Translations under genes and position numbers: made by a program
The notes under the pieces: generated by a model
Told to the model about the DNA's origin: nothing
Database searches by the model: none
The model's input: the letters and a program-made list of their open reading frames with translations, nothing else
Part shown: piece after piece, positions 3,092 through 25,766 of the stretch
Numbering within the stretch: the stretch's first letter is position 1
Layout of the letters: each line of letters begins with the position of its first letter
Assembly (NCBI GenBank): GCA_004563595.2
Contig: CP042461.1
Location: forward strand, 60,001 to 92,000
Length of the DNA stretch: 32,000 bases
Direction: 5' to 3'
From: Candidatus Saccharimonadota bacterium
GTDB lineage: Bacteria > Patescibacteriota > Gracilibacteria > BD1-5 > UBA6164

Positions 3092-3496
3092 GTGATAAAA
3101 AAAATAGCCTTTATTTTTATACTCATAATCTGATTATTAAGTTTTGCAAATGTTTGATTTGCCAAGTGTGAATGAGATGAATGTAAAATAGATTCAATAA
3201 AATTTCAGATTGATGTAAATGACATTACTCCATGACTAGAAATAGAAGAAGGTGATAATGTTGAACAGACAATAAATAGAACGCTTTGAACTATCATACA
3301 AAAGCTTATGATTGCTCTTTGATCATTGTCATTACTTATAATGACAATATGAGGATGATATATGATAATGTATCATGGACAGGATGAGTTATTATCTAAA
3401 TGAAAATCAATATTTTTATCTTGAATTACAGCACTTGTAGTTGCCTTAAGTTCATATTATATGGTAGCATTTTTGAGATATATTTTATATTCATAA
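3092..3496 (+). CDS. VirB2/TrbC-like (T4SS-type) pilin paralog 1
   Basis: 134 aa, GTG start. (M)IKKIAFIFILIIGLLSFANVGFA signal peptide, then two hydrophobic helices separated by a short charged loop: LIMTIGGGYMIMYHGQDELLSKGKSIFLSGITALVVAL. TAA at 3494-3496. Confidence 0.7.
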
Positions 3497-3508
3497 CAGT
3501 AGAAAAAT

Positions 3509-3904
3509 ATGATTAAAAGTTTAGATAAGATTTCATATGCATTTTTATTTGCTTGTGTAAGTAGTTATGTACTCATATCAAAAGTTTTTGCTGCAGCTCC
3601 AACGGTAAATTGTATATGACTTCCTTGATGTGCTGATACGGATGTTGCTAACCCAATACCATCAGACATTAGTAAAAATATATGAACAACTTTGGTGACA
3701 AATATAATATCTCAAATGATTCAGTATGTTGCTGTAGTAGCTGTAATATCATTAATGTTAAGTTGAGTAATGTATCTTGTTTCAGGATGAGAGGAAGAAA
3801 AAACAAAAAGAGCAAAGAGCTGGATTATGTGGTCACTTGTGTGAGTATTTATGTCTATCTTTGCTTACTGAATAGTGAAAATTGTTAATAATTTCTCAAT
3901 TTAA
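3509..3904 (+). CDS. VirB2/TrbC-like pilin paralog 2
   Basis: 131 aa. MIKSLDKISYAFLFACVSSYVLISKVFAAAP signal peptide. Core reads IISQMIQYVAVVAVISLMLSGVMYLVSGGEEEKTKRAKSWIMWSLVGVFMSIFAYGIV. Track ORF 3682..3888 is out of frame with this gene. Confidence 0.75.
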
Positions 3905-3924
3905 TTTATTATTTATATACTGTT

Positions 3925-4314
3925 ATGTTAAAAACATCTTTTTATTCACTTATATGAATATTCTCAAGTACTTCTTTTGTATTTGCTGAGGCTACGAAGG
4001 ATTCCATTTTAAATGGTATTATACCAACCTGAAACAATGTGAATAAAGTTGTTGCAGATATTGATTCTACAGCAGATGGACTGACTGTACTTGATAATAT
4101 CTTTGCCTGAGCAAAAGATTCCATTTTTTGACTTATGATGATACTTTCAATAGGGGTATTTTTATTCTTATGAGTACGTCTGGTAGTAGCAAGAGGAAAT
4201 CCAGAAGAATTTAAAAAAGCTATGATGAGTATGGTATATGCTGTGGCAGGTCTTTTTGTCGTAAGTGCAGCTTGGGCAGCAGTGAAATTGGTATCTGGAC
4301 TTAATATATCTTAA
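3925..4314 (+). CDS. VirB2/TrbC-like pilin paralog 3
   Basis: 129 aa. MLKTSFYSLIGIFSSTSFVFAEA signal peptide. Core reads IFGLMMILSIGVFLFLGVRLVVARGNPEEFKKAMMSMVYAVAGLFVVSAAWAAV. The track only shows antisense ORFs here. Confidence 0.75.
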
Positions 4315-4322
4315 AAAAAAAT

Positions 4323-4733
4323 ATGAAAAATTTTTTCCTGAGTATTCTTTCAATATTAGCAATAAGTGTATCATTCTATGGATGATTATTTGCAGCTTGA
4401 TGTGATTTTGATCCAACAGCATCTTCATCAGCAAAAAAAGCATTAGAGGAATGTTTAAATGGAACAAGTGTAGTTCCCGTAGATAATGTTGATCTTGCAA
4501 CTGGATTCCAAACGGTTATTGTTTGATGGGTAAATAATATAGCTATTCTTTTAGGTATCCTTGCTGTATGATCAATAGTATTTGGATCACTTCTTTTAAC
4601 TTTGAGTACATGAGAAGATGAAAAAATCAAAAAAGCAAAAGACGTTATTAAATGGTGAATTCTAGGGTTTTTAGGAGTGGTTACAGCTTCTACTATTGTA
4701 ACTATTGTGGTTAAGATTATGTATTCTATTTAA
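4323..4733 (+). CDS. VirB2/TrbC-like pilin paralog 4
   Basis: 136 aa. MKNFFLSILSILAISVSFYGGLFAAGC may be a lipobox-like signal. Core reads IVGWVNNIAILLGILAVGSIVFGSLLLTLSTGEDEKIKKAKDVIKWGILGFLGVVTASTIV. Confidence 0.75.
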
Positions 4734-4739
4734 TAAAAT

Positions 4740-5615
4740 ATGAAAAAGACTCTTGTATTCTTGTTTTTGACATTCTCTTTTACATGTATAATTTTTGTTT
4801 TTAAGAATTATCTTCTTTTAGATGCACAAACACAAATTGAAGAACAATACTTAGATCCTACCGTTATTGTTGAACCCCAAGAAAATGATGATATGTTGAA
4901 TACTGCAAGCTGAGAGACTATAAAAGAGGTTGCATGAAAACAAGATAGAGAAAAAGAGCTGATTAAAACACATCTATTATCAGCTTCAAAAGTACACTTT
5001 TTTTATCTTCCCGTTTCCTTTCAAAAAGCATCAGAACAATATAGTTGATTATTAGGAGTGTTCTTAAATAATAGTTCTATTCAGGATAAAATTAAAAAAC
5101 TCAAAATCGAAATGCACGAAGATTTACTAGATGTAAGGTGAAAAATGAAAAATAAAACAGTAAAATTGTTTTGAGTTTTACTTATGAAAGAGGAAGAATT
5201 TATATCGGTATCAATTCATGAATTTGCTCATTATGTAGATTTGTATTTCTTAGAAAAAAAAGTTCTTACAGATATTAGTAATTATTATTACAAGATTAGT
5301 TGGGATTCCACTAAAGTATTGAAGCCGGGTCAAAAACAAGCAGATTTTGTTTCAGGATATGCTATGACAAATAAATATGAGGACTTTGCAGAAAGCTTTA
5401 CGTATTATATATTACATAATAAAGATTTTTTCATAAAATCAGAAAAATCTTCTATCTTAAAAGAGAAGTATATTTTTTTCTGACGTTATATTTTTAGAAA
5501 TAAAGAATTTATATCGACTGATTTTTCGGCATGAGTTGACTTAAAGAGTTATTATCGGGATATCACAAAAATTGAAATAAATTTGAAAAAATTATTGCAA
5601 TTTTTAAAAAAATAA
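4740..5615 (+). CDS. membrane-anchored zincin-like metallopeptidase (HExxH...E)
   Basis: 291 aa. N-terminal anchor MKKTLVFLFLTFSFTCIIFVF. Zinc motif SIHEFAHYVD, plus downstream YEDFAESFTYY as a possible third ligand or gluzincin-like glutamate. In frame with track ORF 5184..5483. Starts 7 nt after pilin 4. Confidence 0.7.
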
Positions 5616-10027: not shown

Positions 10028-10270
10028 ATGTTAGGAAAATTAAAGAAAAGAAAAAGACTAAGAGTTCATGGATTCATGAAAAGAAGCTCAACTGTATGAG
10101 GGAGAAATGTCTTAAAAAATAGAAGAAGGAAAGGAAGACATATATTAGCAGTAAGTTACCCAAAAAGATACCAAGAAATTAATGGGAAAGCTAAAATGCA
10201 TATTATTGCTTGAGGTACAGCAAAAAAATCACCTTTTGATGGAAAAGGAAACTATGTTAAAAGAAAATAA
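10028..10270 (+). CDS. rpmH: ribosomal protein L34 with C-terminal extension
   Basis: 80 aa. The [37 protein letters not shown] core matches L34. About 37 extra residues follow (YPKRYQEINGKAKMHIIAGGTAKKSPFDGKGNYVKRK) before the TAA at 10268-10270. Confidence 0.85.
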
Positions 10271-10293
10271 TCATATTGAGTAATTAGACATTT

Positions 10294-10653
10294 GTGATTT
10301 CAAAAAAATATAGATTACATGAAAGAGAAGTGAAAAAGGTTTTACAAAAATGAAAGCCTTTTTTTTCTTACTCTATTGTATTGAATTATATGAAAAACAA
10401 AGTATGATATTCAAGGTTTGCCATCGTTATTTGAGCAAAATCAGTTACTCATAATGTGACAAGAAATTTTTTTAGAAGAAGATTTTATGACCTTGCTTGA
10501 GAAAAACGAGAGAGTAAACAAACTGAAAATTACGACTATGTTTTTGTAGTAAAAAAGAAGACGAAATTAGATAAAAATAATGAAAAATGTGTAAAAGATT
10601 TTCTAACAGATATTACATTTCTTGCAAAGAAAATACTTCCTAAACAAAAATAA
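10294..10653 (+). CDS. rnpA: ribonuclease P protein component
   Basis: 119 aa, GTG start (an in-frame TAG lies at 10285-10287). LHEREVKKVLQKGKPF...RFAIVIGAKSVTHNVTRNFFRRRFYD fits the RnpA RNR-motif region. Lies in the conserved position between rpmH and yidC. Confidence 0.8.
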
Positions 10654-11816
10654 TGAAAAAAATATTAGATATCCTCATCATCGCTCTATTAATTGTATTG
10701 CTTGTAAATCTATTTAATGGGAATAAAGAAACGGAACTTACAAATGGGAAGCTTCTATTTGAAGCTACAGATTCATCATATACAATTCCTGCATCTGTAG
10801 GACTTAAAATCATAAATAATTCTGTAGAAGATGTTTCAATTCATAGTTGTAACGATGTGAAAGTAAATATATCATGAGAAAATATAGTTTTTTCAGAAGA
10901 TTTTTGTAAAGATGTTACCATTGCTGCTGGTGAAGAAACAGTCCTTGATTATCAAGATCAATTTTCTCAGTTTGAACAAGTATGAAAATATGTTTTTGAT
11001 ATACAAGTATGAGATAAACAACACCTTTCTGGTTTCGAAATTGAAAATAAATGAGCAATTAAGAAAATTTTTACGACCCTCTTTTATGCTCCAATATATA
11101 ACTTAATGATATTTTTGGTTGAGTTTTTTGGAAATTCACTCTGATGGGCTATTGTTTCAATCACTATAATTATTAGATTAGTTTTATTATGGCCTCAACA
11201 TAAAATGATGTTAAGCCAAAAGAAGCTTCAGGCAATTCAACCAAAAATAAAAGATATTCAAGATAAGTATAAATGAAACCAGCAAATGCTTGGAATGAAA
11301 ATGATGGAACTTTATAAAAAGGAAAAAGTAAATCCTATGGGATCATGTGGTTTTCTTTTAATTCAGATGCCTATATTACTTGTGATATATAATATTATTT
11401 TATGAATAAAAGACCCTTCAAACTTATATCACCTCTATGAATTCCTATCAGGATTTTCACTCGCTTCTATGTCTTCTAACTTCTTTGGTCTGGACTTGTT
11501 ATCAGCAGGGTGAGTGGCGTGAGCAATATTGGCTGTTTCAGTATGACTCATTCAGTTTGTTCAAATAAAGCTTTCACTGGCTGATAAAAAAATAACTTCT
11601 TCAAAGGTAGTGTTAGAAAAGAAAAAGGATACCAATAGTTATTCTCAACTTATGCCTGACCCTGAAATGATGAATAAATTTATGTTGTATGGAATGCCAT
11701 CAATGGTTGTAGTATTTACCTTTACTCTCTTTGCTTGAGTTGGTATCTACTGGGGTATGTCGACACTATTTATGGTTTTTCAACAATTAATTGTGAATAA
11801 AATACTAAAAAAGTAA
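10653..11816 (+). CDS. yidC: membrane protein insertase YidC with an N-terminal extracytoplasmic domain of about 140 aa
   Basis: 387 aa. The ATG overlaps the rnpA stop (taATG). Core reads LQAIQPKIKDIQDKYKGNQQMLGMKMMELYKKEKVNPMGSCGFLLIQMPILLVIY ... MLYGMPSMVVVFTFTLFAGVGIYWGMSTLFMVFQQ. I checked the frame codon by codon to the TAA at 11814-11816. Confidence 0.92.
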
Positions 11817-11904: not shown

Positions 11905-12585
11905 ATGTCAGCAAGAAAAATATTCATTTCGTTTATATTGTTAACTATGGTAACACCTACTTTTGCATATGAAGCAGTAGAATGTTCTAGTGATGCTGTA
12001 TATGCAGCAAACTCTTGTGGTCAATGTTTTGACGGAGGTAGTAAAGGTCAATGAGAATACGTATGATTATTAAGTGATGATTGGATTAATAATACTGAAA
12101 CAAAAAAATTATTATTCAAAGAACAACAAGAGTTTCCTCAAATGGTAAACTTAGCTTCAGATTCAGTAACTTGGTCTCAAGATCCATCAAATGAAGATTT
12201 CTGGGAATATACTCCAGAGTTTAATAACTTATTTTCAGCTGATGAAGGAGGTTATATCTTAGACGCTGGTCAAACAGTAACTTGGTTAAGATCAAAAGTA
12301 TGATATGCTTATAAAATAGATAAAAATACGGTTCCATTAGATGGAAATGTAGGTCTCCTTGTATTCCCAATTACTGTTCATTCAATTGGTGACGATGGTG
12401 ATATTGCAATAGATGATGAAGAATTAAATGAATGTGTTCTTTATAAATCAGGTGAACCTGGAGAAGTTACTACTTCACCAGAACCAAAAAAACTACCAGA
12501 CACAGGTCCAGCAGAGTTTATGCTACTTGCATTACTTGCAATGATCCTAGGACTTGGAATACTCAAAGTAAGAGCGAACTCTTAA
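11905..12585 (+). CDS. LPXTG-anchored surface protein (sortase substrate)
   Basis: 226 aa. Signal peptide MSARKIFISFILLTMVTPTFA/YEA. C-terminal sorting signal LPDTG (12493-12507), then hydrophobic PAEFMLLALLAMILGLGIL and the basic tail KVRANS. Confidence 0.8.
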
Positions 12586-12604
12586 TTATATAAATATTAA
12601 AAAA

Positions 12605-12635
12605 ATCAGAAGATATATTCTTCTGATTTTTTTTG
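12605..12635 (+). terminator. rho-independent terminator
   Basis: atcagaaga (12605-12613), loop tatat, tcttctgat (12619-12627), then a T-run to 12635. Confidence 0.75.
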
Positions 12636-12734: not shown

Positions 12735-15700
12735 ATGTTATTAAAAATATTTTTTAAACATATACGTATGTTATATATAGTAAAACAATATAAAGCTTTA
12801 TTAGGAGCACTATTAAGAAATAGACTTATAGGTGAGGATGGAGGATCATTTATACATGACTTAGATAATTTTCTTGATACTGATTCAAAAGAACCGAAAG
12901 ATTTTGCATCATTACAAAAAAAAGCTAAAACTCCTGAACAAAAAAAAGCGATTAATACTGCCCAAAAAAAAGTTGCTGAAGTGAGTAACACAAATAAAGA
13001 AGCAGTAGAGAAAGTTACAACAGAAGTAAAAGGTCAGAAAGCAAAATTGGACAAAGAAGTGACTCCATCTGCTTTTACGAACCTTGATCTTGCTACTGCT
13101 CAACAAACATTACAATATCTTAACGCTTTATCAAATACATCATTAAAAAATGGAGACGGGTGAGCAAAAGTTTCTCAGTTACAATATGCATTGTTAGGTC
13201 TTTGATATAACCTGTGACAATCATGAGAATTTAATAATTGAGCTGATGGTATTTATGGTTCAAAAGTAAAAGCAGCAGTAAGGGGAGTACAAACTGAATT
13301 AGAGTTAGACGTGACAGGAAGTTTTACGAGTACTACATTTGATAAATTAAAATCAGAACTTACTCTTGTTGTTGAATCTAAAAAATCAGAAAAAACAGTT
13401 GCTACTCAAAGTGAAGGTTCAGCTTATAAGGATCAACCTGAAGTTGTAAGCGCTCTCTCAGAGGCTGATATAGCTGCACATGAGGCTGAAATTGCAAAAC
13501 AAAGAGAGGCACTTATGAATGAAATTAATTCAGATCAGACTCAAGAGGTAAATACAGAACTTTATATCCCATATTCTAGGCCTACAAGGCAGAATAAAAT
13601 GTGAAAATGACTTGATTTAGCTGATAGAAATAGAGAAAAAGAAGTCACTTGAATTAAGAGAACAGAGCTTTTAGATCGTATGAATGTAGCATTACTACAT
13701 GATTTATTAAGAAGTGAAAATCTTGAAGAAATTTATAATGACGCATTTTCAAAAGTATCCATAAAAGAAATTACTGATGATGATGGAGTAATAACAAAAG
13801 TAGCAGAATATAATGGGATTTGAAAATTATCGAATTTTTCTGAAACTGCTAAGGTTTTAAAATCTGCATGATATGATGATGCTAAAGGGTTTTGGTGATT
13901 AGATGGTGAAGAAATGTGAGCACTTATGTTAACTATAAGAGATCAGATTAGGACTCAAAAAAATATTCCAACTATGTCTGCTGTAGGAAAAATGAAAATT
14001 CTTTTTGATTTTGATGGAGATACACATTTGGAAAGTGACTCAAAAGAAATTGATGGAATGAATTATGTATCAGAAAAACAAATTACACGTGATACTTTTA
14101 AATGAATCACATCAAATGGATACAATATATTGTTAGAAAACCTTGGTCTTCCAAATATTGAGACTGAAATGGCTCAAAACTTGTTTACTGCAAGAGAAAA
14201 ATTCCATAGAGAACTTGGTACTATGTTTGAAAGAGGATATAAATTAGGTGAACTACTTGTTGAAGGATGAGTACAACGTGCGACTGAAATGATGTATGGG
14301 AAAGAGAATGAAAAAGCGGAAGCGATTTCTAAAATTGTAGAAGAAAAGTTAATTCCTAGATTAGAGGCAGAAGCAGGGCAAGAATTAACTCCAGAAGAAA
14401 GAAAGCAAATAAAATTATTGGCTATTGGTGTTATGACATGAGGAGTGACATGAGTAGGCGCATCTTTTGATATCAAAGACTATGTAAAAGTAGTAGATAG
14501 TCTTCAAGTCGGACTCTTTAATGGTGTTCCATGAGTTGGTATATCAAAAAAGCTATGGGAAAAAAATGGTTTTGAGTTTACAGGATCAGTAGTAAATTTT
14601 TATATCCCAGTATTAACAGCTCAATATCACGATGAACCTTCATTAGAAAAAGTAAAACAAACATTTGAAGAAGAATTTGAAGGTGATTGGACTATCTCAC
14701 CGTCTATTTCTATAACAGTAGGGGCTTACCTTCCTTCAATAGCGTTTACTTATGAGAATAAAGATACATCAAAAGGTATTGATAAAAGAGTAGATAACAT
14801 GTGAGATGTATTAGATAAAATGTTTAAAGATATACAAGAATGAAAATCTTTTGATGATATCTCATATATTGAATCTAAATGAAAAGAAGAAAATAGTATT
14901 TATAATAAGATGAAAGATACATATGATACATATGGAGCATCTTTAACAGAAGAACAACAAGTGTTATTCATGAGAGACTTAAAACAAGGAGGTTTGAATT
15001 ATTATAAAATGGGTTTATATAATAATGCTTCAAAATCTAATTTTGATATCAACGCTTTCTGAATCTGAAGATGATTAGGAGATTTTAATCCACTTACATT
15101 TATTTATGTTGGTTGAGAAAATTTAAGTTTAGATTGGAAAAAAGTTATTCACTCAATTGATAGAGAAAGAGAAGTAACTACTACTCGTATTGCTTTGGAA
15201 AAAATCTGAGCAGAAGTAGTTGAATACAAAGGATTTAAAGTACTTGCTATACCAAATGGTTCAGAATATGCCATTTCATCGGATGAAAATATTATCCAAG
15301 CAGAGTACGATAAAGGAAACGATATGTTATATATCACGGGTGATATTAGAAACATTTCAGTTGCAGAGTATTCTATGGCACATTGAGCTCAAAAAACTAT
15401 TGTAGTTTGAAAATGAGTTACCAATGAAAAAGGAATGCTTCTTGATACAACTGAAAACTTAGTATCTATTGATTCAAATTTATGATTCAATATTGATTAT
15501 AGTGCAGAATCTTTAGAAAAAACTGAAATTGCAAGAGATCATTTATTTACCATTATTGACTCATGAACATTGAAAGATCCAAAAACTCCAGGTATGATGG
15601 CTCTTCAAAAAGCTATCTTCAATTATAAAAGAACATGAACTCCAACAATATCTGAATCATGGGATAAATTTATAAAAGTATTTAATGATCCTGAAATGAA

Positions 15701-16634
15701 GTCATATGCATCATGAGAGAAAGAAAATGCTCTGAAAGGTTTATTGCTATATATACAAAACACAGATATTACAAATGAAGATAAAGTTCTTATTCTTCAA
15801 TCAGTTTCATCAAACTTAATGAAGAAAAAAGCATTAAAAATAAAGGGGACAAAAGTTATGATTGAATGAGGAGAATCAACCTTAATGGAATATGATACAA
15901 ATAATAATAGGTCAGATTTCTTTGATCCAATATTTGAAAGAGAGTTATCTGATATTGCGGCAGATATTAAAGGTGCGAGAACTGAATATTTGAAGGCAAA
16001 TGGAGATAAAAGAGAATATACATTTACTTCAATAGCAGAATGAGATATTGCATTTACGGGAGTATTTTCAAAAAGATGAGACTGAGAGGATAATGTAAAT
16101 GGTTTAATGCCATATACATGAGTATATAAGGTTGCTTCATTTGAATGAGGAGTTGATATGGTGCCAATTGAAGGGAAATCAATAAATATTATTGATGCTC
16201 TTCCAACAGGATATTTAGAAAATGTAAAAACAATTTTAGAAGAAATTACATGACAAAGTTTTAGATCAGATAATGTTGATGATCCTTTTGAGAAAGTAAA
16301 AATTGCATTAAAAAGTAAGGATACTCCAATTAAATTTGAATATGACCTTTTCTTTGCTAAAATGTCAGAGTGTTTGAATGATGCTGTTATTATGAAAAAC
16401 CTTAAAATGACTGTAGGTGATAATAAAGTTACTCTCTGAGCATCTTCTACAAGTGAAGTCTATACTCCAGAGTACGCTGCACAAAAGTGGGCACTTTGAT
16501 TTACTGAAAATAAAAAAGATGATGGTAATGGTGATGATGACACAAGAACTCCTCCTCCTGGAGGAAATACAACTGAATGATGAGGGTGATCTGGGAATGT
16601 CTGAGGTGGTGAAGTTGGAGGAGGAGGTTTCTAA
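12735..16634 (+). CDS. giant hypothetical protein (1299 aa) with a PG_binding_1-like peptidoglycan-binding domain and a Gly-rich C-terminus
   Basis: Single open frame under table 25, checked codon by codon over long stretches. Track fragments 12735..13163 and 13311..13604 are in frame. nt 13164-13349 encode AKVSQLQYALLGLGYNLGQSGEFNNGADGIYGSKVKAAVRGVQTELELDVTGSFTSTTFDKL, matching the PG_binding_1 pattern (LQ..L..LGY..G..DG.[FY]G..T..AV..FQ....L..TG). The protein ends ...PPPGGNTTEGGGGSGNVGGGEVGGGGF. No signal peptide or clear TM segment. The rest is unrecognised. Confidence 0.75.
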
Positions 16635-16669: not shown

Positions 16670-16852
16670 ATGTGAAAAAATTGATTACATATACCAATCT
16701 TAGTTTTTCTGGCTTGCCTTCTTTTGTTTGTTTGAGCTTATTATTTAAGTTGAGAAAAGGAAGTTAGAGAGGTTAATATGGATAACGCCGAAGAGAGTTC
16801 AATCGAACATGAGGACCTCTTAAAAAAGGAAATAATTGCTCCTGATTTCTAA
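16670..16852 (+). CDS. small single-pass membrane protein (60 aa)
   Basis: MGKNGLHIPILVFLACLLLFVGAYYLSGEKEVREVNMDNAEESSIEHEDLLKKEIIAPDF. Codons 2 and 5 are TGA, so it is absent from the track. One TM helix plus an acidic tail. Support is ORF and context only. Confidence 0.4.
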
Positions 16853-16874: not shown

Positions 16875-16902
16875 TTGACTTCAATTTTGTAATAAGTATA
16901 AT
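16875..16902 (+). promoter_or_regulatory. sigma70-like promoter (TTGACT-16-TATAAT)
   Basis: ttgact at 16875-16880, a 16-nt spacer, then tataat at 16897-16902. This sits 30 nt upstream of the ATG at 16933. Confidence 0.55.
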
Positions 16903-16932: not shown

Positions 16933-19821
16933 ATGAAATATATTAAAACAGCTATTATAGCAATATTCTTATTTGTGTCACCTTCCCAGGTGGCCTTTTG
17001 AGCATGATGAATAGAAATGGAAAGTTGTTCTTCAGGTGTATATAGCGCTTTTTATCCAAGTTCTTGTTCAGTATGTTGATTTGGGACTCAAAGACTTTAC
17101 GAATGAGAAGATACAGATTTCTGGGACTTTTATAATAGTACAGATTCAAATGAAGAAATATTTGCATCATCAAGTAATGCAAGTGTTACCGATTTTTGAT
17201 GATATTTAAATGATGAAAGTCTTTCATGATTATGACTGAGATCAACTTGGACACCAGTTAACTTGAGCCATAATTCAGCAGTAATATTTTTCGTAGATAA
17301 CTTAAGGCTCACATCAAGACCACCTGATGTGAATACACCAGTATGAAGAATTGATTATTTTTTGAGGTGAGCTCCAGTAGTATCAAATTGAAATTTCTCA
17401 TTTACTTGAGAAAGAGGATATCGTGAATGAACGGAAAGCTTAGTGAATTGAGAGTATGTACTTGATGCGCCTAATTTTATAGTTGACCCTGATCCAGTAA
17501 GTCAAAAAAGTATAAATACATCGGATATATTTGAACATAATGAATGTTATGTTATGTTACCAGCTTGGTGTTGAGATGGGTTAGTTACAAATTGAGAAAC
17601 ATGTGATCCACTAGATCCAGCAACAAGTGCTTGATGTAACCCACTTACCTGCCAACCATTCCCTACATTTGTACCGTTTATGGCAGTAGATATTGTCGAT
17701 GACAATGCTGACGATTTAGATGGGGTACAATGAGATGATACTCAAACTGTAAATGTTGGTTCTGGATCAACTTTTAGAGTTACATTAACAAATGCTTGAA
17801 CAGACGCTTTAGAAAATATAACTCTCCTAGATATAGTAGCTCCAGAGTGTGCATGATCTGCAACTCTGACTGGTACAACGTTTACTTGACCATCTACATG
17901 GACAAATCTTTCAGCTACCTGAGTTATTAATGGATCTTTATTACCATTAATATGAAGCCTGAGTTATAATTGTAACTTGGATAATATATCAGTAGATATC
18001 ACAAATACGATAACTGCAGCTTGATTATGAGTGAATAGTAGTCTGATTACATGAGCACTTCCTGATACAACTCTCGTTGTTGCTTGAACTGGAAGCACGA
18101 ATTTATGTTGAAATGGAATTATCGAAACACCAGAAGTATGTGATTTTGCCGATCCAACACAAACAGCTTGGGGAACAAGTGGATGTACAGCCACCTGTCA
18201 ACCAGATAATGGATGAGGATGAGGTGGAACTTGACCACAATGTAGAGCTATAGATGCATGAACATATGATAGTACGACGAATATACGTAGTGGAATAGTA
18301 TGTACTTGAAATAGTGATGTAAATTCTATTAGACTTGATTGTTGAAATGGAACAAACCTATACGGGTCTGGATCAACGGCTACATTCTCTTGTGATTATA
18401 GTGGGAATGCAAATCCAGATGAGATTAAACCAATTTGTTATGTAGCATGAAGTACTTGATTAACAAATCCTAATTCATCTTCATGGTCAACTCGTCTTGC
18501 TTGTACACCAGGAAGACCAAATGGTGGCTGAGGAGGAGGTTGAGGCTGAGGAGGTTTTTCAAAAACATGTTGAGATGGAGTGGTTCAAAGACCAAATGAT
18601 TCTTGATTCAATGAACAATGTGATACTACTCAAACTTGGTGTAGTGCTACATGTAAAGCACTTGTAACAACACAACCTTTTGGAGGAGTAGTGAAAATGT
18701 TACCAGGGAATGATTATGTTATTATTGGAGATGGAATGAATCCATATGAGGCTCATACTTTGAGTTACCCATATATTGAAAATTTATCAGAAGACCCAAA
18801 TACGGATATAGCATTTGATGAAATTTGTGTATATAATACATCAGGGTCATCACTTTCAGGAGATGGAACTCAATGTGAACCTATGGGAGTAATCTATCCA
18901 TGAGAAAAAGCATATTTTGGAAGAACTCCAGATTATAGGTGAAATACTTCTGGTATAACATCTGGTAATATAGGAGAAAATGTTTTAAGGTATTCTGTTA
19001 AAAATGATGGAACAGACTATCCGGATGCATTCTTTTCAACGGAGTTAAAAGTAAGAGTTTCAAAACCTTCTATTGCAACGGTATGAGGATGAACGAGTTT
19101 CTTAAACAATACATCTGCAGTAAAAACTCAAGATATTGCAAAATGAGAACATAAAGATGCAAATAAGAACTTTGTATGAGCATGAGTTTGAGAAAATGGC
19201 TTGAGTTATACAAAAGATGTTTCAGACACTGCCTCAGTAAATAAAATATGAGAAGAATGAAGTGTATATAATAATACACTGAATGGATCAATAAATGATC
19301 TATGATCAAATTGATGAACCCGTACAGATATAAATGACTTCGATAATTATAATGGTATAGAAAATGTTTATATCTTAAAGAATTATAACTTTAAGATCGA
19401 ATCTGACCTATTCTCAAGCATCAATTGACCAAGAACATATGTTATAGAGAATTGAAACCTTATTATTTCTTCTGATATAACTTATTCAGATAATATAGCA
19501 TTTGTTGTAAAGTGATGAAATATTATTATAGATGAAGAAGTAAGAAGTATTAAAGGAGTCTATATCTCTATTCCAAAATGATCGAGGTGATGAAAGTTTA
19601 TATGACTATGAACAACAAATAATATATTAAAAGTAGAATGATCATTGTATTGAAATATAGAGAATCTTGTAAGCAAGAGAACCTATATAAATGAAAATGC
19701 AAGCTGACAAATTAGTGTATGAACAATTGTAAGTTTTGGTTCGAGTATCTTTAGGAAACCTGCACCACTTACTTGAAAATTTATATGAGAATATTTAGAA
19801 GCTGAAAAGATAGCAAAATAA
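16933..19821 (+). CDS. large secreted Cys-rich-repeat surface protein (adhesin-like, 962 aa)
   Basis: Signal peptide MKYIKTAIIAIFLFVSPSQVAFG. Three CxDG...E.CD repeats of the myxococcal Cys-rich / DUF4215 type: WCGDGLVTNGETCDPLD, LCGNGIIETPEVCDFAD and TCGDGVVQRPNDSGFNEQCD. A DUF11/CARDB-like stretch reads QTVNVGSGSTFRVTLTNAGTDALENITLLD. Poly-Gly linkers are present. Track ORF 18691..18903 is in frame. TAA at 19819-19821. Confidence 0.8.
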
Positions 19822-21672: not shown

Positions 21673-22992
21673 TTATTTCTTAACTGCAGCTTTTTTTACT
21701 TCAAAGAAGCTATCAATAAGTTTTCTATATTTTACTCTTTGTTTGAGTTCTTCATAGTATTTATTTCCTGGAATATAGAGTTCTTCCAATCTTTTTAATA
21801 CATCTTTAGAACCAAATCTTGTAAGAATAGTTTTAATTTCTTCTTCCATTTCTGTGTCAGAAACTTCAAGTTTTTCAAGTTCAGCAAGTTTGTGAAGAAT
21901 AAGTTCTCCTTGTAATCTCTTTGTTGCTGTTGGTTTTACATTTGTTTCTTTATATTCTTCTTCTGATAGTTTAAGACTTTCTAAATAGTCAGATACTTTT
22001 ATATTTTGTTGACCTAAATTTTCTTTTATTTCAGTATATACTTTTTCTATTTGGGTTTTAAGTATTCCATCTCATAGATCAAGTTTTGTTACTTTTAGAA
22101 GTGCATCTATAAGTTGTGTTTCTTCTTCCATTCTTGCATTTGATTCTTTCGTATCAGTGATTTCTTCTTTGATAAGTTTTTTAAATCCATCAAGGTCAAG
22201 TTTTTGTCCTCTGAGTTGTTCTATAAATTCAGGAGTAAATTCTGGTTTTACTGCTTTTTCAAGTTTATTTATTGTTACTTTGAATTTTGTTTCTTTTCCT
22301 TTAAATGCATCGTTATGATAGTCTTTCGGAAATACTACATCAAGCTCTAATGAATCTCATAATTGAGCTCATACCATGTCTTCTTCAAAACCAGGAACCA
22401 GTACATTTGATCCAAGTACAATTGGGTAATCTTTCATAGATGTTGATTCAAGGGAAACTCCATTTTCAAACCCTTCAGTATCAATGGTAACTTTATCACC
22501 CATTTTTACTTTTGATTTCTTATCTGTTACTTCTTCAAATTTTGTAAATTTTGTTTCTATTTCTTCTAAAGATTTTTTTACTTCAGCAGCACTTACAGAA
22601 ATAGCTTTTTTAGTAAGTTTGATTTTTTTGTATTTTGCATCAATTTCAATTTCTGGAAGTACTTCTATATGAACTCTGATTTTAAGAGGGCTTTCTGAAA
22701 TAATTTCTTTTATTTCTGCTTGAGCAACAGGAACAACTTTTTCATTTCTGAGAGCTTCTCTATACATATTATCAATAGCAAAATCTATAGTTATTTTACT
22801 AATATAATCTTCTCCATATTGTCTAACTATGATATTTTCAGGTATTTTTGCTCCTTTTCTAAAACCCTTTATGTCAGCATTTTTTTCAATATGAGCTATT
22901 GCTTTTTTTCTATACTTCGCAATGTTTTTTGCATCTTCTTCTATGATGAGCTCCACTATTGATTTTGGAAGTAAATTTTTTTCTATTTTCAT
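21673..22992 (-). CDS. tig: trigger factor
   Basis: 439 aa. Track ORF 22369..22992(-) is the N-terminal 207 aa (IKGFRKGAKIPENII ribosome-binding motif). It continues through TGA codons (FEEDMVGAQLGDSLELDVVFPKDYH, FKBP-type PPIase region) to the TAA at 21673-21675. Confidence 0.92.
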
Positions 22993-23028
22993 ATAAATAA
23001 TTATAAATTAATAAATTGGGCCAGATTA

Positions 23029-23056
23029 TATATAAAAAACAGGAAATATCAATTTT
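23029..23056 (-). promoter_or_regulatory. sigma70-like promoter for tig (TTGATA-16-TATAAT on the minus strand)
   Basis: Reverse complement of 23051-23056 is ttgata and of 23029-23034 is tataat, with a 16-nt spacer. This sits about 35 nt upstream of the tig ATG at 22992. Confidence 0.5.
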
Positions 23057-23163
23057 TAATTCCGTAATTTGAGCTAAAAGGAAAAAACTGTATTATAAAT
23101 TTCTATTATAAATTCATTCTCAGTTATATCTCAATAAATCAAGATATAAGAATTTTATTCAGA

Positions 23164-24015
23164 CTAACTTTTCGGAGTTTTAGATGATTCAAGGAATCCT
23201 TCCTTAAGGAGTTCTTTCTTACGTGCACGAAAGTCTTGTTGTACCATTCAACACAACTCTGAACGTCATACTTTTATTATATCAGCTGGAGTAAAATTTT
23301 TACTTATCATTAATAATATGATTTTATCCATACTATCTGGTTTCATTCAAATTCATATAAGAGTATCGTATTGTTCTGGAAACAAGACTATTTGAGCAAA
23401 GGGCATTGTCACTAAACGAGCTCATAGTTCTTTTATCTCATCTGGAGTATACTCTCTTACAATCATAGTAAAATCTCCAATTGCCAAAGGTTTCTGGATG
23501 TTACATAAAGTTGATATTTTAGACAGATCCATTCATTCCTCCATCAAATTTTCCACTCCAATTGCCATAAGGTTTTCTTTCGATTTTGACATAGCTTTTT
23601 CAATGTGTCTCACTTTATCATATGAAATTTTTGATAGATAAGTTTGCCACTCCAGTCATAATTCATCATATACTTTTTTTCATAATATAATTTCTGATAT
23701 TGACATAGTAGCGAGTTTCACAAATCATTTTTTTTCTATTTCTTTATTTGAGATATTAGAAAAAATTAATTGTACTCTCTCAGCAGTAACATTTGGATGG
23801 TGAAAAAAATCTTCTCATGCAGCTTCTATGTCTTCAATCTCTAAATTAGAAAGAAAATATTCTTCTCAGAGCGCAATAAAAAGATCACGGGGAAATGTTT
23901 CACGTGCAAAAGTGAGTTGTCCCTGTTTAGGATCTAAAATATCATTACAAGCGCTGGAATACTCTTGAGTGAGAATTGGGTCCCAAGTTCCTGATTCAGA
24001 CTGCGTAGAGTCCAT
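23164..24015 (-). CDS. hypothetical cytoplasmic protein (283 aa)
   Basis: Open frame under table 25 from the ATG at 24015 to the TAG at 23164-23166 (852 nt). MDSTQSESGTWDPILTQEYSSACNDILDPKQGQLTF... No signal peptide, TM segment or motif that I recognise. Confidence 0.6.
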
Positions 24016-24129
24016 ACTTCAAGGAGTATTTATTGGCGTAGTTGACAAATGTAAAGATTTATAGTATAAGTTGTACTATAATACAATAAATAGTGGCGAA
24101 AGTCAAATTATGATTTCTCTGTAATTTAT

Positions 24130-25269
24130 TTAATAAGTTCACATTTCATAATCATAATTATCGGTATCAAAATTGTATTTATAGATGATTCCATAGTCAG
24201 AATATTGTTGAAAATCACGAGGAAGGAAGTTTATATATCAGTCATCAAATAGTCATTGAGCTGTAAGGGCAGGTCTTCATTCATGGTCTGTCTCGAATAT
24301 TTCATTTGCTTTTTCTATGTATGCTAAATTCAGTTCTCTTACAGCTTTATTTACATAATTGCTACATTTTGTGTCTGATAAATTAACTATTTCATCTTCT
24401 TCGAGAAACTTACCAAATGCTTGTTCCCTTGTCTCTCAAATAAATTTAATTAACTTTCCATCAAGAGGGATTTGTTGTGTTGTAAATACCTGTGATCAAA
24501 TATTTTCAAGTTGTCATGCAAAAATTGAACATACTTCATCTTCAATTTCAACATATTTTGCAATATTTAAAAACATGTAAAATGATTTTTCTCTATTTCA
24601 TCATTTCCCTTGCATTATTGCTGCCATAATTTTTGCTCAACCAATAGCTTCTTCATTCGCACTTGCTATTTTATAATAGAGAGAGGCTGTTTCAGGATCG
24701 TTATTATAAAAGTAGTATATGTAGGCAAGATAATATGGGAGGGTATATATTTTACATGGATTTTTATACGCATCTTCACGTAATTTATCTAAATTATCTT
24801 CTCATTTTATGAGTTTTATTTTTTCAGGGTCACAAAAATTCTTGACTCATTTAAGTCAGAGAGTAATTCCTTGATTTATATATTTTTGTTGTTCATCTTC
24901 GCTTAATTCCTCGTAACGTTCATTATAACTAGGGAGAAGCAGTTGTCAGATTATATAAGGATGTTCAAAATAAGGATTTAATTCTGTTATAAGATCTAGA
25001 ATAATAAAAAGAAATTCTTTGTAATCAGATGAGAGCGCATTTCAACCTATATATTGTATTGTTTCAAGCCAGTATAAATCTGCTCTTAAATTTTTAAATC
25101 AAAAAGATGTCTGAAGTGCGAGTTCTTTTGTTGGAAGACTATCTGGGTGTTGAATTAAATTTTCTTTAATTTCTTTATGTTTTTTGTAATTTAATTCATT
25201 TATTTCATAAAAACTTCATAAAATGACTATTATGAGTGGGAGAAGTAAAATTTTTTTCATTTTTTTCAT
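24130..25269 (-). CDS. hypothetical N-terminally anchored protein (379 aa), helical-repeat-like
   Basis: ATG at 25269 to TAA at 24130-24132 (1140 nt). MKKMKKILLLPLIIVILGSFY anchor. Also FKNLRADLYWLETIQYIGGNA and Y/E/L-rich helical segments (PETASLYYKIASANEEAIGGAKIMAAIMQGKGG). No family recognised. Confidence 0.65.
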
Positions 25270-25274
25270 TATAT

Positions 25275-25766
25275 TTAAATATCATCTCAGTCTATATCTA
25301 TACTGAGTTTTGCCCCTGGTTTACATATATATAACCTCCTTTCTTTATCTTCTCCAATACTCTTAGTAAAAAGAGAATCATCATTATGTTCTGAAACAAA
25401 TGAATGTATTTTTTTTCTGTCATATGCTGAGTAGTATGGGAGCATAATATCTTTCCCTGTATTCTTAACTTCTTCTATTTTTGTTTTTATAAATTGAAAT
25501 AATTTGTCATCTTTCGCTTGTCTATAATCATTAATCTCTAAATCGATTTTTACTTTTGAGTTATTTCTTTTTGAGATAAGGAGTCGTAATAGGTTTTGTA
25601 TAGCATCGAGGTTTTTTCAATGAGGTCATATGAGTAAACCTGATTCTTCAGACTGTATTTTTATTAAAAAAATACCAATCTTTTCTTCTTCAATTTCAAG
25701 AGAATCGATTTTTATATTGAGATTATTAAAAAAAATTTGAGAAAAATCTTTTATTGTATTCAACAT
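25275..25766 (-). CDS. jag: Jag/KhpB-like RNA-binding protein (KH + R3H domains)
   Basis: 163 aa. KH region reads SGLLIGPHGKNLDAIQNLLRLLI (GxxG). R3H region reads LPYYSAYDRKKIHSFVSEH. Ends 5 nt before the next gene's ATG. Confidence 0.75.

What the first reader, a model, noticed from the sequence alone, without database searches (positions are those of the whole stretch)
12735..16634. 1299-aa orphan protein: peptidoglycan-binding domain but no secretion signal, with a Gly-rich tail
This is one uninterrupted table-25 frame of 3.9 kb, whereas the standard code breaks it into dozens of pieces. Residues about 143-205 match the PG_binding_1 three-helix pattern (LQYALLGLGY..G..DGIYGSKVKAAVRGVQ....L..TG). 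That domain works outside the membrane, yet the N-terminus (MLLKIFFKHIRMLYIVKQYK...) is not a Sec or Tat signal and I see no convincing TM helix. The remaining roughly 1100 aa have no motif I can place. The C-terminus is a Pro/Gly tract (PPPGGNTTEGGGGSGNVGGGEVGGGGF) in which 6 of the Gly codons are TGA. Possible roles are a non-classically exported wall-associated scaffold, a lytic or predatory effector, or a phage-derived virion or lysis protein.
Basis: partly seen in the sequence, partly recalled or inferred. Interest (0 to 1): 0.7.

Follow-up and report, generated by a model that had tools for sequence, protein, structure and literature searches.

The report
Conserved Gracilibacteria envelope protein, not orphan
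This is a real 1288-aa gene of a bacterium that reads TGA as glycine; it is not an orphan but belongs to an undescribed family that always sits between surface-protein genes and never has a normal export signal, so its role is probably structural at the cell envelope, though that is unproven.

Summary
The ORF is real. It has 45 in-frame TGA codons, no TAG, and one terminal TAA. TGA = Gly is shown both by housekeeping genes in the window and within this gene. It is GenBank QFR38671.1 ("peptidoglycan-binding protein", Ca. Gracilibacteria bacterium 28_42_T64) and most likely starts at Met12 (nt 12768). The PG_binding_1 hit at residues 143-205 is significant.

It is not an orphan. At least 53 other 50%-identity clusters, mostly 1000-1500 aa, share a ~950-aa body. 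That body has no relative in Pfam, NCBIfam, PHROG, PDB sequences or Foldseek, using two AlphaFold models with pLDDT 76. About two thirds of full-length members share a 20-25-aa N-terminal amphipathic motif. PG_binding_1 is only an optional accessory, and the C-terminal tails are variable and low-complexity.

The gene sits in a conserved cassette: rpmH-rnpA-yidC, then a sortase-type anchored protein, this family, a small lipoprotein or TM protein, and a large secreted DUF11-type protein. None of 34 family members has a Sec-like N-terminus, whereas every sampled neighbour does. There are no relatives in viral contigs and no hydrolase signature.

My best reading, which is inferred, is a wall-associated structural component of a lineage-specific surface complex with an unresolved export route.

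The parts
12768..16634 (+). Probable true coding sequence of the F0-family protein (1288 aa, 142 kDa, pI 4.9, one Cys). The first in-frame ATG is at 12735.
   Evidence: The frame is open in table 25. The NCBI record P0055/QFR38671.1 starts at Met12. The N-terminal motif HMM scores 33.5 bits at 12768 against 27.8 at 12735.
12768..12845 (+). Family N-terminal motif (MLYIVKQYKALLGALLRNRLIGEDGG): an amphipathic helix followed by a Gly/acidic junction. It is not a Sec, Tat or lipobox signal.
   Evidence: The motif is present in 25 of 39 full-length members. GG at motif positions 22-29 occurs in 9/25 against a 10% background, p=6e-4. No NCBIfam sorting-signal model matches. KD12 is at most 1.78 in all 34 members.
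13161..13349 (+). PG_binding_1 domain (residues 143-205).
   Evidence: Pfam PF01471, E 1.9e-8, 34.8 bits, cutoff 23. NCBIfam and PHROG hits (SleB, endolysins) cover only this segment. The domain is optional in the family.
13647..16529 (+). Conserved ~950-aa family body (residues ~305-1265). Its order is a helical domain, a Gly-rich beta block, three long helices, a long hairpin, a small beta domain, a helical domain and an alpha/beta domain.
   Evidence: phmmer alignments cover query positions 100-1060. AlphaFold2 models have mean pLDDT 76.3 and 76.5 with the same layout. No PDB or BFVD fold match has E<0.05. There is no PDB sequence match.
14007..14030 (+). DFDGDTHL loop (family consensus DFDxDGxL), which resembles a DxDxDG/EF-hand-type Ca2+-binding loop.
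   Evidence: L423, D425, F426 and L432 are conserved in at least 13/16 members. The only related hit is a non-significant calcineurin-B profile match, E 0.69. The calcium-binding reading is inference.
15054..15125 (+). Conserved Gly-rich hydrophobic segment (residues 774-797, AFGIGRGLGDFNPLTFIYVGGENL; family consensus TSIGGGIALLAGFLPIPYLTLGGE).
   Evidence: KD19 is at least 1.6 in 18/34 relatives (maximum 2.2), in most of them at this segment, but 0.75 in the window's protein. pLDDT is below 50 at residues 768-787 in model 2. Its nature is unexplained.
16368..16382 (+). ECLND motif, which contains the protein's only cysteine (C1213).
   Evidence: The motif is invariant in the core subfamily. 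C1213, N1215 and D1216 are conserved in at least 15/16 members. No conserved His was found.
16506..16631 (+). Disordered acidic Gly/Pro-rich C-terminal tail ending ...GGGGF. It contains 4 TGA-encoded Gly in its last 27 codons.
   Evidence: pLDDT is below 50 from residue ~1259. Low-complexity tails are general in the family.
12599..12633 (.). 15-bp hairpin flanked by A and T runs, resembling a bidirectional intrinsic terminator, between the upstream LPXTG gene and the target.
   Evidence: the sequence is shown.
11905..12585 (+). Upstream partner (F1-small): a 226-aa secreted protein with a Cys-containing N-domain and an LPDTG + TM + KVRANS sortase signal.
   Evidence: Sequence. It is conserved directly upstream of F0 in 9 loci and in the standard-code locus L019.
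16670..16852 (+). Small 60-aa ORF with one hydrophobic helix, 36 nt after the target. Its positional equivalents in relatives are lipoproteins.
   Evidence: A lipobox Cys is present in L004, L007, L008, L013, L014, L016, L017 and L019.
16933..19821 (+). Downstream partner (F1-large): a 962-aa secreted, Cys- and Gly-rich protein with 70 TGA codons and its own promoter-like site at 16875-16902.
   Evidence: It is homologous to the downstream gene in L004 (E 2.5e-44) and conserved downstream in 11 loci. Relatives carry DUF11 repeats.
10028..11816 (+). rpmH (10028-10270), rnpA (10294-10653) and yidC (10653-11816), the conserved upstream anchor of the cassette.
   Evidence: Pfam labels. Conserved order in 8-9 loci.

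Best explanation
SHOWN.
- This is a single, intact chromosomal gene of a code-25 (TGA=Gly) Gracilibacterium, deposited as QFR38671.1, and it probably starts at Met12.
- It belongs to an undescribed protein family (called F0 here) of roughly 1000-1500 aa, confined to Gracilibacteria/Absconditabacteria-type Patescibacteria.
- The family architecture has four parts: a conserved 20-25-aa N-terminal amphipathic motif ending in a Gly-rich junction; a variable helical region that in this protein carries a genuine PG_binding_1 domain; a ~950-aa multi-domain body with no detectable sequence or fold relatives; and a variable low-complexity Gly/Pro/Thr/acidic tail.
- The gene is embedded in a conserved cassette downstream of rpmH-rnpA-yidC. 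The order is a sortase-type wall-anchored protein, then F0, then a small lipoprotein or TM protein, then a large secreted protein that carries DUF11 repeats in relatives.

INFERRED.
- F0 is a non-enzymatic structural component of a lineage-specific cell-surface complex built with its three neighbours.
- In this organism it is tethered to the cell's own murein through PG_binding_1.
- It reaches the wall by a route other than Sec, Tat or the lipoprotein pathway. The conserved N-terminal motif is the best, but unproven, candidate for a targeting element.
For: Gene and genetic code.

Identity and organism. The organism is a monoderm with complete peptidoglycan synthesis, a sortase, S-layer proteins and no outer membrane (PMC6851277).

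Family: there are 53 other representatives, 23 at E<1e-30, aligned over ~950 aa. They occur in Gracilibacteria, 'Peribacteria', Absconditabacteria and Patescibacteria MAGs.

PG_binding_1: significant in this protein.

Synteny: rpmH-rnpA-yidC-F1small-F0-small ORF-F1large is found in the window and in L006, L007, L008, L009, L012, L014, L015 and L016, with the downstream half also in L004, L010, L013 and L017. The F1small-F0-lipoprotein-F1large core is retained in a 57%-GC standard-code contig.

Neighbours are extracytoplasmic: LPDTG plus TM plus a basic tail, lipobox small proteins, and DUF11 repeats at E 1e-17 and 2e-75.

Further hints of an extracytoplasmic location:
- F0 tails resemble the tail of the adjacent lipoprotein in the same genome (permutation p=1.5e-4).
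- The protein is acidic and has a single Cys.
- It has a DxDxDG-like loop.
- It has low-complexity Gly/Pro/Thr tails.

No catalytic signature was found.
Against: - None of 34 full-length members has a Sec-like N-terminal hydrophobic region, although all 23 sampled neighbour proteins do. The simplest reading of that contrast is a cytoplasmic protein.
- The N-terminal motif is missing in about a third of members, including an ortholog in canonical synteny, L009. It therefore cannot be an indispensable export signal.
- PG_binding_1 is above threshold in only 2 of 10 correctly translated orthologs, so wall binding is not a defining property of the family.
- No exporter was identified.
- Localisation, complex formation and function are all untested.
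- The tail covariation is weak for the window's own pair, which shares only the terminal Phe, and is DNA-level in L008 and L017.
Confidence: 0.45

Rival explanations
1. F0 is a cytoplasmic or inner-face membrane-associated factor. It stays inside the cell, docks on the membrane through its N-terminal amphipathic helix and/or the Gly-rich hydrophobic segment, and helps to export, assemble or regulate the flanking surface proteins. On this reading PG_binding_1 acts as a protein- or precursor-binding three-helix module.
For: - The family-wide absence of any signal peptide, against its universal presence in the neighbours.
- An amphipathic N-terminal motif.
- An internal hydrophobic segment with KD19 at least 1.6 in 18/34 members.
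- PG_binding_1 is dispensable in most orthologs.
- Conserved linkage to yidC.
Against: - PG_binding_1 domains are, to my knowledge, essentially always extracytoplasmic or act on murein.
- Low-complexity Gly/Pro/Thr tails, and their resemblance to the tail of an exported lipoprotein, fit an outside location better.
- No ATPase, chaperone or other cytoplasmic-machine domain was detected.
- rpmH-rnpA-yidC is a near-universal cluster, so linkage to it may be historical.
Confidence: 0.25
2. F0 is a host-directed, membrane-inserting contact protein. It is exported or exposed at the epibiont-host interface, and its Gly-rich beta block and hydrophobic hairpin insert into the partner cell's membrane, acting as a pore, a fusion element or a junction. 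The DUF11 protein and the sortase-anchored protein would provide adhesion and anchoring.
For: - The central block consists of long Gly-rich amphipathic strands.
- The top Foldseek hits are repeatedly porins or a designed 10-strand TM barrel.
- A conserved segment resembles a fusion peptide, TSIGGGIALLAGFLPIPYLTLGGE, and has low pLDDT.
- The organism lacks lipid synthesis and is predicted to be host-dependent (PMC6851277).
Against: - All the structural hits are non-significant (E at least 0.07, TM at most 0.34).
- The hydrophobic segment is not hydrophobic in the window's own protein (KD19 0.75, with Arg and Asp).
- No secretion route is known.
- Amphipathic strands are equally typical of soluble beta sheets.
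Confidence: 0.15
3. F0 is a peptidoglycan hydrolase or lytic effector whose catalytic domain is too divergent to be recognised.
For: - PG_binding_1 usually accompanies murein hydrolases.
- A single invariant Cys lies in the ECLND motif.
Against: - Those hits cover only the PG-binding segment.
- No muramidase, amidase, NlpC/P60, CHAP or M23 fold or HMM was found in two good models.
- There is no conserved His partner for the Cys.
- The Cys is replaced in a divergent subfamily.
Confidence: 0.06
4. F0 is a phage-derived virion or lysis protein within a prophage remnant.
For: PHROG endolysin families match at E 7e-9 to 2e-6. The protein is large and has no signal peptide.
Against: - The PHROG matches are confined to residues ~74-243, which hold the PG-binding domain.
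- There were 0 relatives among 2.9 M viral contigs.
- No BFVD fold match was found.
- Chromosomal synteny with housekeeping genes is stable across deep divergence.
Confidence: 0.02
5. The ORF is an assembly or fusion artefact, or is really several genes.
For: None, beyond the unusual length and the TGA-rich frame.
Against: - The genome is closed and curated (1.343 Mb).
- The identical gene occurs on independent contigs.
- Orthologs of the same length and architecture occur in more than 15 loci.
- There is no internal TAA or TAG.
Confidence: 0.01

Closest known systems
PG_binding_1 (PF01471) cell-wall-binding modules of murein hydrolases (SleB, phage endolysins, zinc D-Ala-D-Ala carboxypeptidases)
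   Same: Residues 143-205 are a significant PG_binding_1 match, which probably gives non-covalent attachment to murein.
   Different: No catalytic domain is attached and there is no signal peptide. The domain sits near the N-terminus of a 1288-aa protein whose remainder is unrelated to any hydrolase, and it is optional within the family.
Gram-positive sortase-dependent surface-protein gene clusters (LPXTG proteins, DUF11/Ig-like repeat adhesins)
   Same: The protein is encoded between an LPXTG-type protein and a large secreted protein whose relatives carry DUF11 repeats. It is acidic and Cys-poor, with a Pro/Gly/Thr-rich low-complexity segment like wall-spanning regions.
   Different: F0 itself has no signal peptide, no LPXTG motif and no recognised repeat or adhesin domain.
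Giant, unannotated envelope proteins of Absconditabacteria/Gracilibacteria (for example those discussed for Vampirococcus lugosii, PMC8080830)
   Same: It is a large lineage-restricted protein of a recoded CPR bacterium with presumed surface function and no known domains.
   Different: Those proteins are predicted to be membrane-localised and carry interaction domains. This family is defined here by its own conserved body, its N-terminal motif and a fixed four-gene context, none of which I found described.
Double-glycine leader peptides exported by C39-peptidase ABC transporters (PCATs)
   Same: A short N-terminal amphipathic helix is followed by GG (…LIGEDGG|S). GG is enriched at this position in the family.
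   Different: Literal GG is present in only 36% of motif-bearing members. The canonical -4, -7 and -12 hydrophobic positions fit only partly. Known cargos are small peptides or proteins, to my knowledge, not 140-kDa proteins. No cognate transporter was identified.
Outer-membrane beta-barrel porins and designed TM beta-barrels
   Same: The central Gly-rich block of about 10 long antiparallel strands repeatedly gives these as the top Foldseek hits.
   Different: The hits are not significant (E 0.56-2, TM at most 0.34). The organism is predicted to have no outer membrane.

Membership tests
PG_binding_1 (PF01471) | HMM match above the Pfam gathering threshold | tested here: met
   E 1.9e-8, 34.8 bits against a 23-bit cutoff, residues 143-205, profile positions 2-57 of 57.
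PG_binding_1 (PF01471) | Three-helix bundle fold | tested here: inconclusive
   AlphaFold2 predicts helices here, but at pLDDT ~40-60.
Murein hydrolases (SleB, endolysins, NlpC/P60, CHAP, M23, GH25, amidases) | A recognisable catalytic domain or catalytic residues | tested here: not met
   Pfam, NCBIfam and PHROG hits cover only the PG-binding part. There is no PDB sequence or fold match. No conserved His was found.
Sec/Tat/lipoprotein-exported proteins | An N-terminal signal with a hydrophobic h-region, a twin-Arg motif or a lipobox Cys | tested here: not met
   KD12 in the first 45 aa is at most 1.78 in 34/34 members, against at least 2.2 in all 23 sampled neighbour proteins. No RR motif or lipobox is visible in the sequence. 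No dedicated predictor such as SignalP was available.
Sortase (LPXTG) substrates | A C-terminal LPXTG motif, then a hydrophobic helix, then a basic tail | tested here: not met
   The tail is ...GGGEVGGGGF, with no LPXTG and no helix. The upstream neighbour does meet this feature.
Double-glycine leader / PCAT substrates | A 15-30-aa N-terminal leader ending in GG, with hydrophobic positions at -4, -7 and -12 | tested here: inconclusive
   GG lies at positions 25-26 from Met12. The family shows enrichment, 9/25 against 10%, p=6e-4. Position -4 is Glu in this protein, and most members lack a literal GG.
Double-glycine leader / PCAT substrates | A cognate C39-peptidase ABC transporter in the genome | not tested
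A search of the paper's supplementary files found nothing.
Phage structural or lysis proteins | Relatives in phage genomes or a prophage context | tested here: not met
   0 relatives in viral contigs. No BFVD fold match. The neighbourhood consists of housekeeping genes.
Outer-membrane beta-barrel proteins | Significant structural similarity to a closed TM barrel, and an organism with an outer membrane | tested here: not met
   Best E 0.56-2, TM at most 0.34. The organism is predicted to be a monoderm (PMC6851277).
S-layer proteins | A signal peptide plus an SLH or other S-layer anchoring or lattice domain | tested here: not met
   There is no signal and no SLH or S-layer Pfam hit. Only non-specific traits are shared: pI 4.9 and one Cys.
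F0 family (defined here) | A ~950-aa conserved body, including the DFDxDGxL and ECLND motifs | tested here: met
   The family HMM scores 1023 bits over residues 12-1276. The motifs are at residues 425-432 and 1212-1216.
F0 family (defined here) | A position between an F1-small (sortase-type) gene and an F1-large gene, downstream of yidC | tested here: met

The most novel reading that the evidence does not exclude
F0 may be the signal-less core of a previously unrecognised, lineage-specific cell-contact apparatus of Gracilibacteria-type CPR bacteria. It would be exported by a non-Sec route keyed to its conserved N-terminal motif. It would be held at the wall by PG_binding_1 together with a sortase-anchored partner and a lipoprotein whose C-terminal tail co-evolves with its own. 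It would then insert its Gly-rich beta block and fusion-peptide-like hairpin into the host membrane beside a DUF11 adhesin. This would amount to a new kind of epibiont-host junction or feeding device.
Probability: 0.1. Interest if true: 0.85.

Novelty: new variant of a known kind. Interest (0 to 1): 0.5.

Why it matters
CPR/Patescibacteria depend on other cells, and their envelopes are thought to mediate that dependence, yet most of their large envelope-associated proteins are uncharacterised.

This work turns an apparent singleton into a defined family with a fixed four-gene context: a sortase-anchored protein, F0, a lipoprotein and a DUF11 protein. The arrangement is conserved from 22% to 57% GC and across the TGA recoding boundary.

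That gives experimentalists working with cultured Absconditabacteria/Gracilibacteria a concrete, testable module. It also poses a specific puzzle: how, or whether, a 140-kDa protein carrying a wall-binding domain but never a signal peptide leaves the cell.

There is a practical lesson too. Public collections often hold these proteins translated with table 4, so that every TGA-encoded Gly appears as Trp. This hides homology and domains, and it produced the false impression that the protein is an orphan.

Tried and rejected
- The word-indexed homology search found only the same gene mistranslated with table 4. A profile repeat added just two proteins. These searches say nothing about orphan status.
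- PDB sequence searches with the single protein and with the family profile found nothing.
- Three Foldseek searches of two AlphaFold models against PDB and BFVD gave no hit at E<0.05. I rejected the porin-like top hits as evidence.
- The weak Pfam DUF1539 and Phasin hits and the NCBIfam gnd_rel hit fall below their cutoffs and were ignored.
- There are no internal repeats and no paralog in the window.
- The phage-origin reading was rejected.
- The hydrolase reading was rejected for lack of any signature.
- The double-glycine leader idea was followed as far as motif statistics. I could not look for the transporter, and the literature search gave no precedent for such large cargo.
- No NCBIfam model matches the N-terminal motif, the C-terminal tail or the small ORF.
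- The N-terminal motif was sought on other proteins in ~180 kb of related DNA and was found only on F0. That is too little sequence to decide whether it is a general signal.
- Papers on Gracilibacteria, Vampirococcus and the patescibacterial T4SS do not mention this family.
- My first attempt to scan genomes with the full alignment failed because it had no conserved stretch. It was repeated with a subfamily alignment.


Full report
**1. The observation**

Window 12735-16634 (+) is one frame of 1299 codons. It contains 45 TGA codons, no TAG and a single terminal TAA; table 11 breaks it with 46 stops. At the window's base composition, the chance of 1299 codons without TAA or TAG is about 10^-39. 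Fifty shuffles gave at most 187 such codons in a row.

The window is 29% GC. Read with TGA as a sense codon, it carries housekeeping genes: pyrH, rpmH, rnpA, yidC, trmD, tig, infB, rpsM/K/D and rpoA.

TGA encodes Gly, not Trp. It falls on the invariant glycines of IF-2 (GHVDHGKT, DTPGHEAF) and of UMP kinase. Within the target gene, TGA codons aligned to a standard-code homolog (P0054, 57% GC) are Gly in 9 of 27 cases and never Trp. GGN codons give the same rate (13 of 37), against a background Gly frequency of 8.7%.

Pfam confirms PG_binding_1 at residues 143-205 (E 1.9e-8, 34.8 bits, cutoff 23). The NCBIfam hits (SleB, peptidoglycan hydrolases) and the PHROG endolysin hits cover only that segment. 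Nothing else matches.

No 19-residue window in the protein exceeds a Kyte-Doolittle hydropathy of 1.4.

The quoted Gly/Pro tail holds 4 TGA codons, not 6.

**2. Identity, start codon and "orphan" status**

The only hit of the word-indexed search (P0001, 97% identity) is this same gene translated with table 4, so that every TGA reads as Trp. It begins at Met12.

The cluster look-up identifies the gene as QFR38671.1, "peptidoglycan-binding protein", from Candidatus Gracilibacteria bacterium 28_42_T64, on a 1.343-Mb contig. The NCBI record (P0055) carries the Gly translation and also starts at Met12. The paper on that genome describes a closed genome, complete peptidoglycan synthesis, a sortase, S-layer proteins and no outer membrane, and predicts 104 "non-classically secreted" proteins (PMC6851277).

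The exhaustive phmmer search found 53 other 50%-identity cluster representatives: 43 at E<1e-10 and 23 at E<1e-30. Most are 1000-1480 aa and align over target residues ~305-1265. Many are Trp-rich because they are table-4 mistranslations. This explains why the protein looked like an orphan.

Relatives lie in MAGs labelled Gracilibacteria, 'Peribacteria', Absconditabacteria and Patescibacteria.

**3. Family anatomy**

- **N-terminal motif.** 25 of 39 full-length members begin with M[LF]x[IL][IV]xQ[YQ]KxL[FL]..., an amphipathic helix of about 20 residues followed by a Gly/acidic junction. In the target the motif starts at Met12. An HMM of the motif scores 12768 above 12735. Over-extended starts also occur in other annotations, for example P0036 and P0039. 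A literal GG follows at motif positions 22-29 in 9 of 25 members, against a 10% background (p=6e-4).
- **Variable N-region.** This region is helical. PG_binding_1 is above threshold in only the window protein and L016 among 10 correctly translated orthologs. It is sub-threshold in L012 and L006 and absent in L007, L008, L009 and L014.
- **Conserved body.** Two AlphaFold2 runs gave the same layout with mean pLDDT 76.3 and 76.5; the second has 433 residues at pLDDT 90 or above. The first run used the Trp-version sequence and the second used the correct Gly sequence.

  | Residues | Predicted element |
  |---|---|
  | ~309-556 | Helical domain |
  | 560-674 | Gly-rich block of long beta hairpins |
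  | 679-765 | Three long helices |
  | 774-804 | Long hairpin |
  | 808-891 | Small beta domain |
  | 924-1089 | Helical domain |
  | 1094-1257 | Alpha/beta domain |

  Foldseek against PDB (twice) and BFVD gave no hit below E 0.07. Porins and a designed 10-strand barrel recur at the top, but at probability ~0.3 and TM at most 0.34. Neither the family profile nor the single sequence finds anything among PDB sequences.

- **Conserved residues.** The conserved polar residues are Y380, E393, Q408, D425, E447, N469, N482, D588, K605, Q958, R1059, D1064, R1082, C1213, N1215 and D1216. There is no conserved His. The protein's single Cys lies in the near-invariant ECLND motif.
- **DFDxDGxL loop.** This loop (residues 425-432) resembles DxDxDG calcium sites, but the only supporting hit is non-significant.
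- **Hydrophobic segment.** A conserved Gly-rich segment (residues 774-797, consensus TSIGGGIALLAGFLPIPYLTLGGE) reaches KD19 of at least 1.6 in 18 of 34 members. In the window's protein it scores only 0.75, and it coincides with low pLDDT. I cannot explain it.
- **Tails.** The C-terminal tails are low-complexity (Gly, Pro, Thr, acidic residues) and variable.

**4. Genomic context**

I called ORFs with TGA as a sense codon in 16 sources (the window and 15 related loci) and clustered them. This shows a fixed order:

(pyrH)-rpmH-rnpA-yidC-[~230-aa protein, F1-small]-[F0]-[50-90-aa ORF]-[large protein sharing the F1 N-domain, F1-large]

- The upstream half of this order is present in the window and in L006, L007, L008, L009, L012, L014, L015 and L016.
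- The downstream half is present in the window and in L004, L007, L008, L010, L012, L013, L014, L015, L016 and L017.
- F1-small has a signal peptide and a sortase-type end. In the window this is LPDTG, then a hydrophobic helix, then KVRANS. Other lineages have LPQTG, LPETG, VQTGP or VKTGP.
- The small ORF is a lipoprotein with a lipobox Cys in L004, L007, L008, L013, L014, L016, L017 and L019. In the window it is a 60-aa single-helix protein at 16670-16852.
- F1-large is secreted and Cys-rich. The window's copy matches the L004 copy at E 2.5e-44, and relatives carry DUF11 repeats (E 1e-17 and 2e-75).
- The core arrangement (F1-small, F0, small lipoprotein, F1-large) persists in a 57%-GC, standard-code contig (L019).
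- In the window, a terminator-like hairpin (12599-12633) precedes the target, and a near-consensus promoter-like site (16875-16902) precedes F1-large.
- The conserved pattern has exceptions. One locus (L002) has a tandem distant paralog, and L003 lacks the canonical context altogether.
- No family member was found among 2.9 M viral contigs.

**5. Localisation: the central problem**

None of 34 full-length F0 proteins has a signal-like N-terminal hydrophobic stretch (KD12 at most 1.78, median 0.82). Every sampled F1-small, small ORF and F1-large scores at least 2.2.

Four observations favour an extracytoplasmic location:
- the PG_binding_1 domain;
- the surface-protein neighbourhood;
- the low-complexity tails typical of wall-spanning segments;
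- the finding that F0 tails resemble the tail of the adjacent exported small protein in the same genome more than across genomes.

For the last point, an exhaustive permutation test gives p=1.5e-4. Examples are ...GGGGTPDTQEGGR versus ...GGGGIPDTQQGER in L008, and shared terminal ...F residues in both the window and L019. The similarity is DNA-level only in L008 and L017, and it is weak for the window's own pair.

Three observations count against export:
- the universal lack of a signal peptide;
- the absence of the N-terminal motif in about a third of members, including L009 in canonical synteny;
- the optional nature of PG_binding_1.

No curated sorting-signal model matches either end of the protein.

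**6. Explanation and rivals**

I commit, at 0.45, to a non-enzymatic, wall-associated structural component of a lineage-specific surface complex formed with its three neighbours. On this reading it is exported by an unidentified non-Sec route.

| Rival | Confidence |
|---|---|
| Cytoplasmic or inner-face assembly factor | 0.25 |
| Host-directed membrane-inserting contact protein | 0.15 |
| Cryptic murein hydrolase | 0.06 |
| Phage-derived protein | 0.02 |
| Artefact | 0.01 |

What is shown: the gene, the genetic code, the family, the domain layout, the absence of known folds, the synteny, the nature of the neighbours and the non-viral distribution. What is inferred: localisation, complex formation, export route and function.

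**7. Comparison and novelty**

The protein shares only its PG_binding_1 module with known wall-binding proteins. It fails the membership tests for hydrolases, Sec/Tat/lipoprotein substrates, sortase substrates, porins, S-layer proteins and phage proteins.

The double-glycine leader analogy is inconclusive. The papers I read on Gracilibacteria, Vampirococcus and the patescibacterial T4SS do not describe this family.

I rate it a new variant of a known kind: a wall-associated envelope protein with a novel conserved body, a distinctive N-terminal motif, no signal peptide and a fixed four-gene context. Interest is moderate (0.5). It is a concrete and puzzling module in a poorly understood lineage, but its function remains unknown.

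Noticed in passing
window 3092-4733 (+) and 4740-5615 (+): There is a tandem array of four ~130-aa proteins. Each has a signal peptide and C-terminal hydrophobic helices, and two give weak T4SS_pilin (PF18895, VirB2-like) hits. The array is followed by a secreted Peptidase_Mx1-like zinc metallopeptidase with an HEFAH motif (E 5e-7). Such VirB2 arrays are reported for Patescibacteria (PMC12102498).
   Followed up: partly
window 16670-16852 vs 16506-16631; loci L004, L007, L008, L013, L014, L016, L017, L019: The C-terminal tail of F0 resembles the C-terminal tail of the adjacent small lipoprotein or TM protein in the same genome (permutation p=1.5e-4). Terminal residues match in class: F/F in the window and L019, R/R in L008, I/L in L014. 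The similarity is DNA-level only in L008 and L017. It could reflect a shared docking or processing partner, or gene conversion.
   Followed up: partly
window 11905-12585 and orthologs (L006-L016, L019): The sortase-type sorting motif of the F1-small protein varies by lineage: LPDTG, LPQTG, LPETG, VQTGP and VKTGP. In every case it is followed by a hydrophobic helix and a basic tail.
   Followed up: no
window 16933-19821 (+): The 962-aa downstream protein uses TGA for 70 of its codons (about 7%) and contains poly-Gly runs of up to 11 residues between Cys-rich modules. Its C-terminal end (...GTIVSFGSSIFRKPAPLTGKFIGEYLEAEKIAK) is strongly conserved in relatives.
   Followed up: partly
Public protein collections (P0001-P0054): Most family members in the public collections are table-4 translations, with Trp at every TGA codon. 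This lowered the PG_binding_1 score for this very protein from 34.8 to 25.4 bits. It probably hides domains and homology for recoded CPR lineages in general.
   Followed up: partly
L018 9001-12390: In a 52%-GC standard-code contig, the F0 homolog appears split into three consecutive ORFs of 682, 125 and 290 aa. The last carries the GDCFND version of the ECLND motif. This could be a real split, a set of frameshifts, or a pseudogene.
   Followed up: no
L002 5311-9897 and L003 6497-7888: In L002 a 1528-aa distant paralog (family HMM E 8e-12) lies immediately after the F0 gene, and its N-region is similar. In L003 the upstream 436-aa protein shares N-terminal sequence with the F0 protein (…EYDLQKII…). 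Together these suggest duplication or shuffling of the variable N-region.
   Followed up: partly
window 12599-12633: A perfect 15-bp hairpin is flanked by an A-run and a T-run, so it resembles an intrinsic terminator on both strands.
   Followed up: no
window 21673-25766 (-): A block of minus-strand genes (tig, two unknown proteins, an R3H/Jag-like protein) interrupts the otherwise plus-strand window. It coincides with a local dip in GC skew at 22-24 kb.
   Followed up: no
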